Origin: Eledone cirrhosa
Taxonomy: Eukaryota
NCBI GenBank assembly: GCA_964016885.1
Contig: OZ024743.1
Location: forward strand, 298,468,001-298,532,000
Length of the DNA: 64,000 bases
Direction of reading: 5' to 3'
Part shown: one piece after another, positions 3,941-63,050 of the stretch
Layout: each line of letters opens with the position of its first letter
Numbering within the stretch: the first letter of the stretch is position 1
Notes under the pieces: model-generated
Told to the model about the DNA's origin: nothing
Seen by the model: only the letters and a program-made list of their open reading frames with translations
Database searches by the model: none
Made by a program: the position numbers and the translations under genes

Positions 3941-5035
3941 AAAGGTTAACATATACATAAATTATAGATATATACATGTTGCAACTGGTCACTTTTAAGC
4001 TCTATGAAGAATTAATAAATTAAAAAATCAGAGCAATATATCATAAATCATGTCTTTAGAATCATCAGATAAAATATATACTATTTCTTCTTCTAATTAG
4101 CATAATTAACCATATAAAAAAAGCAATTAGATCAAGCTATAAGAAGAAAGGCTCTTATGGAGAAATCTCCGACAAATAACCGAACGTAGCCTCTTCGCGG
4201 TGGCCCCGATCAAGTATTTATCCAACATTTCGACAGCATGTAGAAACTGACTAAATATATCATCAACCATACACAATTAGGTGTAAAATTAAACTTAGAA
4301 GAAATGCGTACACACCGTAATTATATCTCTACCATGGTTTCTTCCTTATTTTTAGACATCCAAATAATAGGAATGTCCTGAGTTAGGATTCATCAGGAGA
4401 CAAACTCAAAATCAGACATCTTGTTTTTCAATCCGATCCCGCCAAAAATAGATTAAAAAATGGCTAAGAATCGCTATGTGGCTGTGGTCAAGCCAGAAAT
4501 AATGTGATTGGTTGCTTACGGCGGGTAGGCTTGCTGCTAGAAAGCGCAGCCAAATATCGCCAAACTTAATCTCAACCTATCGGGAGATTATTAAATATAA
4601 AGGTTAACATATACATAAAGTTATAGATATATACATGTTGCAACTGGTCACTTTTAAGCTCTATGAAGAATTAATAAATTAAAAAATCAGAGCAATATAT
4701 CATAAATCATGTCTTTAGAATCATCAGATAAAATATATACTATTTCTTCTTCTAATTAGCATAATTAATCATATAAAAAATCAATTAGATCAAGCTATAA
4801 GAAGAAAGGCTCTTATGGAGAAATCTCCGACAAATAACCGAAATGTTGGATAAATACTCGATCGGGGCCACCGCGAAGAGGCTACGTTCGGTTATTTGTC
4901 GGAGATTTCTCCATAAGACCCTTTCTTCTTATAGCTTGATCTAATTGATTTTTTTTATATGGTTAATTATGCTAATTAGAAGAAGAAATAGTATATATTT
5001 TATCTGATGATTCTAAAGACATGATTTATGATATA
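3940..5035. mobile_element. TA-embedded element with direct plus inverted duplication (A-B-C-A-B'-A')
   Basis: 3940-4183 is repeated at 4598-4841; 4839-5035 is the reverse complement of ~4037-4232. This architecture resembles Penelope-like pseudo-LTRs. Confidence 0.65.
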
Positions 5036-5322
5036 TATATATGTATATATATATGTATGTACATATATATATGTATATATATGTATGTATATATATGTAT
5101 ATATATATGTACGTATATATATATATGTATATACTCGTATGTATATATATATGTATATATATGTATGTATATATATATATATATATATATATGTATATAC
5201 TCGTATGTATATATATATGTATATATATGTATGTATATAGATATGTTTGCATATATACATATATACATGCATGTATATGTACATGTATATATGTATATAT
5301 GTATATATGTATGTATATATAA

Positions 5323-6450
5323 TAGTTCCTGACAAACAGGTCCCAGCATGTTATCGAAGGAATACGATCAAGATCAGCCACAGTCAGTAGTGGATTCCCA
5401 CATGGTGCTGTTTGGGCTCACTTCTTTTCATTTATTACATAAATGGCAGTAGAGACGCCATCAAGCACAGCAAGATAAGGGTTTTCGCAGATGATTCCAA
5501 GCTCTAGAAGGTCATCCATGGTGTGGGAGACTGGACATGCCTTCCACCGGATCTTTTCGCTCTTATACAACGGGCGACTGGGCGTCAAAAAATAATCTGC
5601 TACAAAACGAGGATAAATTCGAATTAATCCCGTTGTGAAAGAGGATGCATTGAAGTTACCATCTTCTCTTCCGCCAGGTGAAACCCTGGTGGCATCAAAC
5701 AAAACCAGAGACCTTGGATTAAATGTTAAGCTGGAGTACTCACATAAACACCAAAGTTGACTTGGCTCGCAGGATGTGTTCCTGGATTCTCAGAACTTTC
5801 CGGTCTAGAGAAATTCACACGATCCTCCTACTCTACTCTACCATTGCCCAGCCGCATCTTAAATACCCTTGTCCACAGTGGTCTCCTCACACAAAACAAA
5901 GTATTAGGGAGTTTGAAACACCCCAGAGGCGAATTTAAAAAAAGATAGACGCTATGACTGGGCTTGACTATTGGTGTTGATTAGAAAAACTCAAACTCTA
6001 CTCTCTCCAACGCAATCGTGAGCGCTATATCATTTGTATGATGTGGAAAATATTCCATCAATATTGCTCAAATGATGTTGGCATCAGTTTTAAAATTCAC
6101 CCAAGGCTTGTTCCCCGTGCTTATCCGCCCACTACAAAAATCAAACGCGCATCTCATAGCAACGATACAACACAACTACGTCACCTCAACTGGCCCCACA
6201 CTCTTTAATATCATACCGACTGAAATATATCAAGACAGAAGCAAATTCCATAATATTAAAAGTTTCTTGGACAAATTCATCTAGAAAATTCGGGATAAAT
6301 TCTCTACGCTCGGACGTGTCTCTGAAAACAACAACTCTTTACTAGAGTGGGCCACGGTGTCCAAAACATGACTAGGTTGTGAACTAGGTTGTGAATCTGA
6401 AAGACTTCGCCAGGTGGTGCTATTAAATTAGACATGTCCTGGGCTAACAC
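5323..6450 (+). mobile_element. CR1/Jockey-group LINE, 5'-truncated and decayed RT
   Basis: [66 protein letters not shown] across frameshifts. Confidence 0.85.
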
Positions 6451-6880
6451 TCTCTCTCTCTCTCTCTCTCTCTATATATATATATATATATATATACTGA
6501 ACTGACTTGGTATATGGAAATAGATATAGATATATAGATATATAGGTCTAATCCTTGCTTTTGCAGGAGAAATGTAATGAATGATAGCTAAGTAAATATA
6601 AGTTAAATATTTCGCTAGAGCAGAATCTCAACGACAAAGCTCGTCTGTTTAATATTATTATAGTGCTAATTATGTTTCATCAAATTGAGTAGTAAACACA
6701 GGAAGGAAACGGCAAAGGTAGTATTAAGATATTGCTGTTTGATAACAGAACATAGAACTTTGTGGATTGGAATTTGACCAAATTTACGAGGTGCTAAAAT
6801 TAGAAATATATATATTTCAGTCTTTAACAATCGCCTAAATTCCATTGTTGTTCGACCTGAACGATAAGAATACATTCTCA

Positions 6881-7046
6881 GACACACACACACACACACA
6901 CACACACACACACACACACACACACACACACACACACACAGACACACAGACAGACACACACACACACACACACACACACACACAGACACACAGACAGACA
7001 CACACACAGACACACACACATACACCCAAGCACATACACGCACACA
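6881..7046. repeat. (CA)n microsatellite
   Basis: Direct reading; similar tracts at 2087-2174 and 57478-57575. Confidence 0.95.
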
Positions 7047-8710
7047 AATGGGAGGCTGTTGATACATTCTCAAAATGGCACCGCAGACAGATTGAGTAAG
7101 ATATGGTAGGAAATAAGTTAATCCCGTCATCTCTCCTACCCATGAATAACTAAGCTTTTTCATCAACTACTCCTACTCTGCCCAAGATATCTCATTCACC
7201 ATTTCTGCTGACTTTGTTAACTTCCTGGACTTCTCTGTCTGTACCAACCAACTCTCGTCACTTTATAAAACTGATGTCTACCACTTCTACATCGATATCA
7301 CCCCTCTCATACCAAATCTGCCCTCCCCTGTCCACAGTTCTTTCAACGTTCTTTCAGCGTTTGAATCAATTACTCAGACTTCGATACCTAATCGTAGTAA
7401 ATAGTTCATTACTTCATACAATGTATTTCCCCTGAACCAAAAGTTGATGCCACCACTCATCGTATTTCTGCTTCTGACTGAACCTTCGAAGTTGCCCTCA
7501 CACCTCGATTCCGCCCTGTAATAAGTTTGGTTGAAGCTCCTTTCAATCTTACGTTTTGCACACAACATATATCTACCTCATCTACATGCCCCCGCTATAA
7601 CATCTCTAATATCTCCTCAGATCTACGTTTCTTGGTGTCGACGTTGATAATAGCATAATACATCTAACTAGAATTAATAGTAGCCTTATTTTCATTTAGC
7701 ATCACCACCACATCCTAATACCAACACTAATAATTGTACACTCTTGTATATTCACAAGTCCATCTGCCTCCACACATACGCACATACACTGGCCAATTTT
7801 TACACATACATACACTGGCCATTTATTACACATACATTAGCGTGTTTCAACAAAACCAATTACAAAGTTGTACATACACTCACACAGCATGATCACCCAC
7901 ACTTCTCTAGCGTCGTATCTCTCTTGACTCGATAAAATACATACACACTTTCGTACATTACCCTTCTTGATTGATAAAAAAATCAAATTTAAACACACCT
8001 TTCCGTTTCAACCACTTTCTTCATACATCTTAACTATAATAAAGGAAGGTCTGCGGGATTGCGTCCAGAATATATTTTTTTACCCCGTTTGTAAAATAAG
8101 TTGGATCACTTTGAATAAATAATGAATGAATATTACATAATTTATGAGCTAAATTTCGTGGCTGTTGATTAAATATATTTTATAGCTTAATCTTTAAAAT
8201 TCACTTCTTAAAAATTCAAATGTCAACACTTCCGGTTAGCGGCCGTTATATTATAACACTTATAATCTCATATATTTCTCCTAATGCAGTTTATATATAA
8301 TGTCATCTTTTTTTAATAAATCATGGATTACTGATTACAGAAGACAGTGTAAAATAGGCTTTGTTCAATTTCTGTGTATATTGTCAATTCCGATTTTATT
8401 TGATGTATCATATTTACATGCATATAATATTTGTATATAATATCAATATAGACACTACACATGCTAGCAGAAAACCACCAGTAGGGTGGTTTTTCTGCTA
8501 GTTTTATTAATTTAACATGACTTTATCGTAAAATTACGTTCACATGTATATTTGATGACTATCTGCTCACGTTTTATGTTTGTAGGAGTGAATCTTTCTT
8601 TATTGTTTAGACAACCAAGCCAATCATGATACATTTGCATCTAACTCAAATCTTACTACCAAATCATACTTCAAAATCCTACTACTTCAATGAAAGAAAA
8701 TAGTAATAAT

Positions 8711-8897
8711 AATTGTTTCTACGTTTGGCACAAGGCCAGCAATTACCCAGAGCATTTCTGGTACTTTATTTTATCGACCCCGTAAGGATGAAAGGCAAAG
8801 TTAACCTCGGTGGGATTTGAACTCATAATGGCAAGGGCCGTAACTCTATACGTCAAAGCATAGCGTCCGACCCTCTACCGATACTGCCAATCCACCG
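8711..8897 (-). mobile_element. tRNA-derived SINE, Meta-type core
   Basis: Reverse complement of gagttcaaatccc..gaggttaactttgcctttcatccttacggggtcgataaaataaagtaccag..ggccttgtgcc..tagaaacaattatt. Confidence 0.8.
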
Positions 8898-62160: not shown

Positions 62161-62317
62161 ATGTATGTATGTATGTATGTATGTATGTATGTATGTATGT
62201 ATGTATGTATGTATGTATGTATGTATGTATGTATGTATGTATGTATGTTTGTATGTATGTATGTATGTGTGTATGTATGTATGTATGTATGTATGTATGT
62301 ATGTATGTATGTATGTA

Positions 62318-62567
62318 TGTAGTGCCTTTGCTCACTATAAAAGCTTCACGGCACAGGCATTGCTTTATATCTCTCTGCACTTGTCATCACATGGTACCAT
62401 GGGACCAGCACTATGTGTCAATAATTGTCATAAGTGTAGTGTTTGTACCAGAATTTTCAAGTCGCTGGCTGGACTAAAAAGTCACACTCGTTCAGCGCAT
62501 CGGTAGGAGTTCTCCTACATGGATATAAAGTAGTGGCCGTACTCGAAAACGAGATGGCAGCCACCAT
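62318..62567 (+). mobile_element. Bipartite RTE-derived element, subfamily A (3' part)
   Basis: Encodes [23 protein letters not shown] followed by the 3' hairpin. Confidence 0.8.
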
Positions 62568-62584
62568 GTATATATATATCAGCA

Positions 62585-62838
62585 GGTCAATACGTGTCAG
62601 AGACTCAGATTTGCTGGCCACTGTTGGCACAGCAAGGAAGAAATAGCAGGTGATGTGTTGTTATGGAGTCCATCTTATGGAGCAAGAAACGCTGGTCGTC
62701 CCAAGAAGACATACGCCAAGCAACTTGAGCACGATACTGGATGCACTGCCGAAGAACTGGCAAACTCTATGAGAGACAGAGATGGATGGAGGAAACGTGT
62801 CGTAGAAAGCTGAGCAAGCTCGACCTGATGATGATGAT
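62585..62838 (+). mobile_element. RTE-clade LINE 3' end with (TGA)n tail
   Basis: RLRFAGHCW..LLWSP..GRPKKTY..L..DTG..M.DRDGWR. Confidence 0.85.
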
Positions 62839-62919
62839 ATATATATATACATATATTTGTATGTATGTATGTATGTTTGTATGTATGTATGTATATATAT
62901 TTATATATATATATATTTA

Positions 62920-63050
62920 TAACGAAGGATTGTGGTAACGAACCAGATGGACCATAACGCACCAGAGTACTCAATACTTAGGGTAGTAGAGTGGCTCAGA
63001 AATAGCCGTCGAAACGGCTTGAGCTCTGTCGTCGGGGTCATACTTTTTCC
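62920..63050. mobile_element. Internally inverted copy of the 18072/26250 hammerhead family
   Basis: 62920-62994 is the reverse complement of ~18201-18275; 62998-63050 matches 26308-26361. Confidence 0.8.

What the first reader, a model, noticed from the sequence alone, without database searches (positions are those of the whole stretch)
4839..63050. Inverted arms repeatedly end at an internal TATA-like microhomology, suggesting (TA)n twin priming
Seen: in the fold-backs the shorter arm joins the microsatellite where the longer arm reads TA-like sequence. Examples are 5030 (atga|tatat), 9530 (ttga|ta), 13138 (ttg|tgtat), 13845 (atc|tatat) and 33876 (taata|t). Three separate copies of one family (18072, 26361, 63050) break at the same cc|TAT site. 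Where a ribozyme is identifiable, its sense points outward on both arms. Inference: both strands of the self-complementary (TA)n target prime reverse transcription, one at the RNA 3' end and one internally. This is analogous to L1 twin priming but yields head-to-head duplications.
Basis: partly seen in the sequence, partly recalled or inferred. Interest (0 to 1): 0.75.

Follow-up and report, generated by a model that had tools for sequence, protein, structure and literature searches.

The report
Twin-primed Penelope insertions in TA repeats
These mirror-image repeats are insertions of Penelope-like jumping genes into TA microsatellites; their two ends sit at two fixed TA-like points inside the element, always one end at each point, likely because both cut DNA strands pair with the RNA and prime a copy, which refines a known layout rather than revealing a new element.

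Summary
The fold-backs are Penelope-like element (PLE) insertions with the published layout: an inverted 5'-truncated copy plus a one-sided tail. The family at 18074 has an intact Hydra-clade parent (784-aa frame).

In the window plus 1.39 Mb sampled genome-wide, 33 of 34 families match (TA)n by at least 1 nt at the short-arm end. The mean is 2.88 nt against 0.95–1.66 expected (0 of 20,000 simulations).

The other end is not the RNA 3' end. In tandem copies it is also internal and usually TA-like (CGT|TAT). Sites are fixed, not opportunistic: family A uses 2 of 7 mappable alternating-TA runs, and a bulged hairpin often follows.

Each inverted insertion pairs one tailed and one tailless arm: 14 of 14 complete full-length insertions, with the long arm tailed 7 times and tailless 7 times. 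This argues against snap-back or later tail deletion. Illumina reads from three other samples confirm both junctions; the fold-back centres were poorly covered.

Two-strand extension from two internal sites is published in vitro (PMC11167929), there without homology. The scan has already noted this system in other windows.

The parts
3942..4842 (-). Family C tailed arm: 100-nt tail at 3942–4041, plus a second tandem tail at 4600–4700 whose end reads on as CCTT|TATAT
4839..5030 (+). Family C tailless arm, ends ATG|ATATAT (6-nt match)
9531..9941 (.). Family D fold-back: tailless arm from 9531 (-), tailed arm to 9809 (+), 132-nt tail; 3-nt match
13139..13523 (.). Family E fold-back: tailless arm from 13139 (-), tailed arm to 13430 (+), 93-nt tail; hammerhead-like core on both arms; 1-nt exact match
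13846..14032 (.). Family B hairpin: tailless arm from 13846 (-), tailed arm to 13949 (+), 83-nt tail; minimal hammerhead cores pointing outward; 5-nt match
18074..18274 (.). Family A (Hydra-clade PLE) hairpin: tailless arm 18074–18132 (-), tailed arm 18134–18194 (+), 80-nt tail 18195–18274; CC|TAT
26236..26361 (+). Family A tailless arm with no inverted partner, ends CC|TAT (only this stretch was aligned to the reference)
26816..26932 (.). Family 4 inversion without duplication: tail-only arm joined to a tailless arm
30980..33874 (.). Family F (13): long tailed arm 30980–33541 (-; 108-nt tail), short tailless arm 33542–33874 (+); 4-nt match; relative L069 carries PLE ORF fragments
36303..37184 (.). 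Family G: tailed arm 36303–36931 (-) ending inside an upstream tandem tail (CTAG|TATA read-through at 36850); tailless arm 36932–37184 (+)
62917..63050 (.). Family A inversion without duplication: tail-only arm 62922–62994 (-) joined to tailless arm 62997–63050 (+)

Best explanation
These are Penelope-like element insertions into (TA)n in which one arm ends at a proximal and the other at a distal fixed TA-like site inside the element, likely because both nicked target strands pair by 2–5 nt with those two sites and each primes a cDNA. Shown: element identity; two fixed internal end sites about 40–135 nt apart; TA enrichment at the proximal site across families and at the distal site in 5 of 8 testable families; strict one-tailed-plus-one-tailless pairing; either arm can be the longer. 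Inferred: the GIY-YIG nuclease cuts both strands; a small CTC…GAG bulged hairpin 5–10 nt downstream positions the RT, and pairing only sets the register; the two cDNAs are joined head to head, often through 1–12 nt of overlap. One RNA held by an RT dimer is my preferred form, with the distal RT either stalling at the proximal complex (tail-only inversions) or displacing it (duplicated arms). Two RNAs in an asymmetric dimer are not excluded.
For: Microhomology: 33 of 34 families match by at least 1 nt, 19 of 34 by at least 3; mean 2.88 against 0.95 or 1.66; local null p≤0.004. Distal site internal: 18 of 18 read-through lines in family A read CGT|TATCTAG; families C, G, 13 and 32 match by 5, 4, 3 and 4 nt. 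Pairing: 14 of 14 complete full-length family A inversions are tailed plus tailless, long arm tailed in 7 and tailless in 7. Three of these were predicted in note before fetching; the other 4 predictions could not be resolved. Random sample: 72 of 73 same-family two-ended inserts are mixed, and 30 of 31 among those not used to build probes. Tailless arms carry up to about 1 kb absent from the tailed arm (L184, L077). Tail-only inversions exist. Centre overlap of 1–12 nt in 8 of 15 junctions. Raw reads from 3 other samples leave the element into (AT)n at exactly the two sites. In vitro precedent: the anole PLE PAc cuts and extends both strands and starts at two internal sites (PMC11167929).
Against: Matches are short: 7 of 34 families have 0–1 nt, and 2 family A ends join (TC)n. 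In one search the single continuing distal copies of families 2 and 21 match by 0 nt and family 1 by 2 nt. Families share ancestry and a hairpin, so they are not fully independent, and some of the 34 are probably not PLEs. PMC11167929 reports initiation at a site not homologous to the cut DNA. Six cross-family tailed-plus-tailless inserts (L188) fit two RNAs better than one. No RNA or enzyme data. Fold-back centres were barely spanned by reads.
Confidence: 0.72

Rival explanations
1. Two-strand priming at two structure-defined sites without primer-template pairing, as reported for PAc. The TA-like bases would be a by-product of AU-rich context or matter only at later repair.
For: Family A ignores TAT at -87, +24, +44 and +130. 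CTC lies 4–17 nt after the site in 17 of 34 families (4.9 expected), followed by GAG in 9 of 17 (3.6 expected). Two ends join (TC)n. PMC11167929 states non-homologous initiation.
Against: Enrichment survives a ±10-nt local null with best-phase choice (p=0.004). Shifted within-family ends also tend to fall on TA-like bases (families 1 and 3; few cases).
Confidence: 0.13
2. Snap-back or self-priming: one cDNA folds on itself, is copied outward, and is joined to the far target end at the first TA-like site. Self-priming was proposed for PLE palindromes in PMC3846280.
For: Many centres are near-perfect palindromes with 0–1 nt spacer. Most short hairpins have arms of almost equal length.
Against: The short arm is the tailed one in 7 of 14 full-length cases. 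Tailless arms hold sequence absent from the tailed arm (L184, L077). Tail-only inversions have nothing to snap back on.
Confidence: 0.08
3. Both arms were tailed at insertion, and one tail was later deleted between the internal TAT and the flanking (TA)n by slippage or microhomology-mediated repair.
For: Would produce TA microhomology and needs only a dynamic microsatellite (general knowledge).
Against: No tailed-plus-tailed pair among 14 young full-length insertions or 73 same-family inserts. No deletions to the TAT sites at +24 or +44.
Confidence: 0.04
4. Chimeric long reads or assembly artefact.
For: Palindromes beside (TA)n are hard to sequence. Centres were thinly covered by the independent reads.
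Against: 3678 first-look candidates in G000, 40 scored, at 94–100% identity. Centres differ from locus to locus. Arms differ from each other. Both junctions appear in 1,300–7,300 raw reads per run in 3 other samples.
Confidence: 0.02

Closest known systems
EN+ Penelope-like element insertion layout (PMC8557442 and PMC3846280, passages read)
   Same: Partial-tandem pLTRs, adjacent inverted 5'-truncated copy, head-to-head arms, a tail at one end only, hammerhead in the pLTR, (TA)n targets.
   Different: Tails here are 37–136 nt against a published 30–40 bp. The passages read ascribe the tail to endonuclease-mediated resolution and the palindromes to self-priming; they do not report TA microhomology at the ends or obligate tailed-plus-tailless pairing.
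Hydra clade of PLEs (PMC8557442)
   Same: Family A protein P0001 has RWR (RWK-like), DKT, a CxCx5C linker, no CCHH, CxxC and CxH motifs, a C-terminal GIY-YIG-like domain, a hammerhead-like motif and (TA)n insertion.
   Different: No tree was built. The unit is 3531 bp, longer than the 'generally <3 kb' reported. Other families were linked to related ORFs only by tblastn.
PAc (Poseidon, Anolis carolinensis) in vitro TPRT (PMC11167929, main text and start of methods read)
   Same: Both strands cut and extended; RT starts at two internal sites that delimit the tail; a stem-loop at the start region; uncleaved RNA is the template.
   Different: PAc sites are reported as non-homologous to the cut DNA, with no strand difference between sites. 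Here the ends are TA-complementary and pair strictly one to one.
L1 twin priming (recalled, Ostertag and Kazazian 2001; not read)
   Same: Second target strand primes internally by microhomology; inversion with overlap at the centre; the tail-only inversions have the same geometry.
   Different: In L1 the first primer uses the poly(A) end and the internal site is opportunistic, giving no duplication. Here both sites are internal and fixed, and the arms usually duplicate.

Membership tests
EN+ PLE (family A) | Single ORF with RT and GIY-YIG endonuclease | tested here: met
   784-aa frame with FDIESYY, YRDD, FLDV and VIY…YIG motifs, identified by inspection. Pfam gave no hit for it; the window relative at 15438–15986 hits GIY-YIG weakly, E=0.0087.
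EN+ PLE (family A) | Partial-tandem pLTRs and adjacent inverted 5'-truncated copy | tested here: met
   3531-bp tandem unit; 14 complete inverted insertions.
EN+ PLE (family A) | One-sided tail | tested here: met
   80-nt tail on one arm in 14 of 14; longer than the published 30–40 bp.
EN+ PLE (family A) | Hammerhead ribozyme in the pLTR | tested here: inconclusive
   Core with a U3-A8 variant and stems I–III predicted. Rfam was not run on the intact family A pLTR; the window hit for family F is below gathering. Cleavage is untested.
Hydra clade | RWK-like motif, DKT, CxCx5C linker, no CCHH, (TA)n targeting | tested here: met
   P0001 read against the motif list in PMC8557442.
Hydra clade | Phylogenetic placement of the RT | not tested
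   No reference proteins were fetched and no tree was built.
L1-type twin priming | First primer at the RNA 3' end or poly(A) | tested here: not met
   The tail end is internal in tandem units. The real transcript end is unknown.
L1-type twin priming | Second primer at an internal site with microhomology to the target | tested here: met
L1-type twin priming | Opportunistic internal site; inversion without duplication | tested here: not met
   The site is fixed; non-duplicating inversions are a minority.
L1-type twin priming | Both primers act on one RNA molecule | not testable with these tools
   Strict pairing and tail-only inversions favour it; cross-family pairs do not.

The most novel reading that the evidence does not exclude
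Hydra-type PLEs use twin priming as their normal integration route. An asymmetric RT dimer reads two hairpin-flanked UAU alignment cassettes on one RNA, like a doubled telomerase template, and assigns one to each (TA)n strand. The short cDNAs are strong-stop-like products that run to the RNA 5' end, about 29 nt below a TATA-like box hidden in the hammerhead's loop II.
Probability: 0.35. Interest if true: 0.75.

Novelty: new variant of a known kind. Interest (0 to 1): 0.52.

Why it matters
How PLE inverted repeats and one-sided tails form is named as an open question in PMC8557442, and PMC11167929 leaves the steps after first-strand initiation unvalidated. The genomic rule found here is two fixed TA-complementary start sites, one used by each arm. 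It turns that question into a direct in vitro test with intact, abundant elements. It also suggests telomerase-like primer alignment in a telomerase-related RT, in contrast to the non-homologous initiation reported for PAc. For annotation, these hairpins are retroelement stubs, not MITEs or miRNA genes.

Tried and rejected
Rfam on the whole window returned only microsatellite-driven miRNA hits among the 150 of 168 rows shown; targeted scans gave sub-threshold hammerhead hits or none. My first structural hammerhead scanner was too strict and missed known cores, so a regex was used. Pfam and PDB gave nothing useful for P0001. Two tail-only genome searches returned nothing, so the pile-up of tailed-arm stops at the proximal site could not be measured without bias. 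No RNA holder was listed. RAD reads mostly end at an AATT site inside the arms (restriction site inferred), so the centres are poorly tested. A shared strong stop was clear only in families A and B; other families' centres are scattered. A Neptune assignment was my first guess and was dropped. [quoted passage not shown] Passages of PMC13282606 and bioRxiv 10.64898/2026.07.22.740005 had nothing on end formation.
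Full report
Observation. After masking microsatellites, self-BLAST finds about a dozen local inverted pairs in the window. Read outward, the short arm stops at (TA)n while the long arm continues 80–132 nt to its own (TA)n. Exact matches between the long-arm continuation and the array are 6, 3, 1, 5, 3 and 4 nt at 5030, 9530, 13138, 13845, 18073 and 33874, and 1 nt at 13811 and 37184. The three cc|TAT ends are real but are one family site. 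26361 lacks an inverted partner and 63050 is joined to a tail-only arm. Hammerhead-like cores point outward on both arms of four fold-backs.

Chance test. I took 139 evenly spaced 10-kb stretches of G000 plus the window. Of 1,755 array edges, 166 had an outward inverted partner. I dropped 46 (partner also at a TA run), 37 (mismatch in the last 5 nt), 9 (arm under 30 nt) and 5 (low-complexity continuation), leaving 69 copies in 34 families. With one lower-median copy per family, 33 of 34 match by at least 1 nt and 19 by at least 3; the mean is 2.88. The null breaks each element at random positions of its own arm and tail: mean 0.95 with random array phase, 1.66 with the best phase, and 0 of 20,000 simulations reach the observed mean. 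Without window copies the mean is 2.80 over 30 families. A ±10-nt local null with best phase gives 2.20, p=0.004, and adding back the 37 dropped copies leaves a copy-level mean of 2.58. Caveat: families share ancestry, and some are probably not PLEs.

Identity. The 18074 element has 3678 first-look candidates in G000, of which 40 were scored. Centres differ between loci while both outer ends are fixed, so hairpins are likely made at insertion rather than copied as a unit. Longer copies lead to an intact 784-aa frame in a 3531-bp tandem unit. Its motifs match the Hydra clade of PLEs as described in PMC8557442 (passages). Families 1, 6, 13, 20, 21 and 28 lie in inserts with related ORF fragments. 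The layout of inverted 5'-truncated copy plus one-sided tail is described in PMC8557442 and PMC3846280 (passages).

Both ends are internal. Where a tail is followed by more element, family A reads CGT|TATCTAG in 18 of 18 lines. Families C, G, 13 and 32 match the array by 5, 4, 3 and 4 nt. Single continuing copies of families 1, 2 and 21 match by 2, 0 and 0 nt. Family A has 7 mappable alternating runs of 3 nt or more in this region; array junctions fall at or just beyond two of them (0 and +80), with one exception at +60. CTC lies 4–17 nt after the proximal site in 17 of 34 families (4.9 expected), with a downstream GAG in 9 of 17, and a bulged hairpin is predicted behind several proximal and distal sites. 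I saw the CTC motif myself (note); the hairpin reading came from earlier scan notes and was then partly tested.

Pairing rule. I chose 20 stretches around the longest ORFs among 150 matches, covering 19 insertions. Fourteen are complete inversions and all 14 have one tailed and one tailless arm; the long arm is tailed in 7 and tailless in 7. Three of these were predicted before fetching (note). One insertion has a disrupted end, and four have no inverted partner and end tailless. Independent 50:50 choice would give 14 of 14 with probability about 6e-5 (my arithmetic). In the random sample, 72 of 73 same-family two-ended inserts are mixed, one is tailless on both arms and none is tailed on both; among those not used to build probes it is 30 of 31. 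Another 196 random inserts had only one end identified. Six inserts over all loci pair a tailed and a tailless end of different families; some may be probe noise, while L188 looks real.

Mechanism. Snap-back from the tailed cDNA cannot give tailless arms about 1 kb longer than the tailed arm (L184, L077), short tailed arms, or tail-only inversions. Later deletion of one tail predicts double-tailed pairs and use of TAT at +24 and +44; neither is seen. Two target-primed cDNAs joined at the centre fit all of this, and 8 of 15 centre junctions overlap by 1–12 nt. PMC11167929 (parts 1–2 of 4 read) shows in vitro that an anole PLE cuts and extends both strands and starts at two internal sites that delimit the tail, but reports them as non-homologous to the cut DNA. 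Primer pairing, the hairpin's role, the dimer and one versus two RNAs are inferred here. In family A most arms in the window and random sample stop 43–61 nt upstream by BLAST (38 of 48), the upper edge lying about 29 nt below a TATA-like box in hammerhead loop II. This suggests run-off at a transcription start, which is untested.

Artefact check. RAD-seq reads from three other samples, laid on an intact pLTR-tail-ORF stretch, leave it into (AT)n at exactly the proximal site (1652, 1397 and 1319 reads) and the distal site (5516, 5910 and 7262). Depth falls from over 6,000 to 50 or less beyond the tail, and contigs of a second organism show the proximal junction too. Centres were crossed by only tens of reads, so individual fold-backs are not confirmed at locus level.

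Verdict. The feature is real, statistically solid and explained as PLE integration. The layout is known and two-site, two-strand initiation has an in vitro precedent. The TA complementarity at both sites and the obligate tailed-plus-tailless pairing were not found in the papers searched. Earlier scan notes on this and other genomes reach similar readings; they are not independent support. New variant of a known kind, interest 0.52.

Noticed in passing
L188:1501-2546: A tailed family A arm is joined head to head to a tailless arm of another PLE family carrying a GIY-YIG fragment. This may reflect two different RNAs in one event.
   Followed up: partly
L200:6209-6314: Family A's hammerhead is a U3-A8 variant whose long loop II holds a TATA-like box and, 29 nt on, an Inr-like motif (labels recalled) where most short arms stop. 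A transcript starting there would lack the ribozyme core at its 5' end.
   Followed up: partly
window 17692-17905 and 18303-18516: Inverted pair of SINE-like heads (tRNA-like by eye, label recalled) pointing inward around a TA-rich array that holds the family A hairpin.
   Followed up: no
window 25804-25922 and 26422-26540: Fold-back of another family with an 8-nt TA-like match at 25804; its centre is split by TA arrays and a tailless family A copy.
   Followed up: partly
window 15438-16707 (-): Degraded PLE RT and GIY-YIG ORF, about 30–44% identical to P0001.
   Followed up: partly
window 12671-13811: Family K inverted pair with a 1-nt match; a hammerhead-like fold (12513–12430, -) lies downstream of the short-arm end, unlike the other families.
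   Followed up: no
window 34385-35099: 593-bp partial tandem repeat whose end reads on as TT|TATAT (5-nt match), probably another PLE-mobilised unit.
   Followed up: partly
window 47113-54760 and 58773-62331: LINE-type RT (RVT_1) copies and zf-RVT-bearing LINE fragments. A (TATG)n-associated repeat lies at 2805–3388, 33985–34316, 59488–60093 and 62322–62565.
   Followed up: no
window 41987-42953: 115-bp minisatellite, 8.4 copies, 97% matches.
   Followed up: no
L041:138-5310: Nested inverted duplication over 5 kb that includes several TA arrays, nearly identical in both arms; could be a real palindrome or an assembly fold-back.
   Followed up: no
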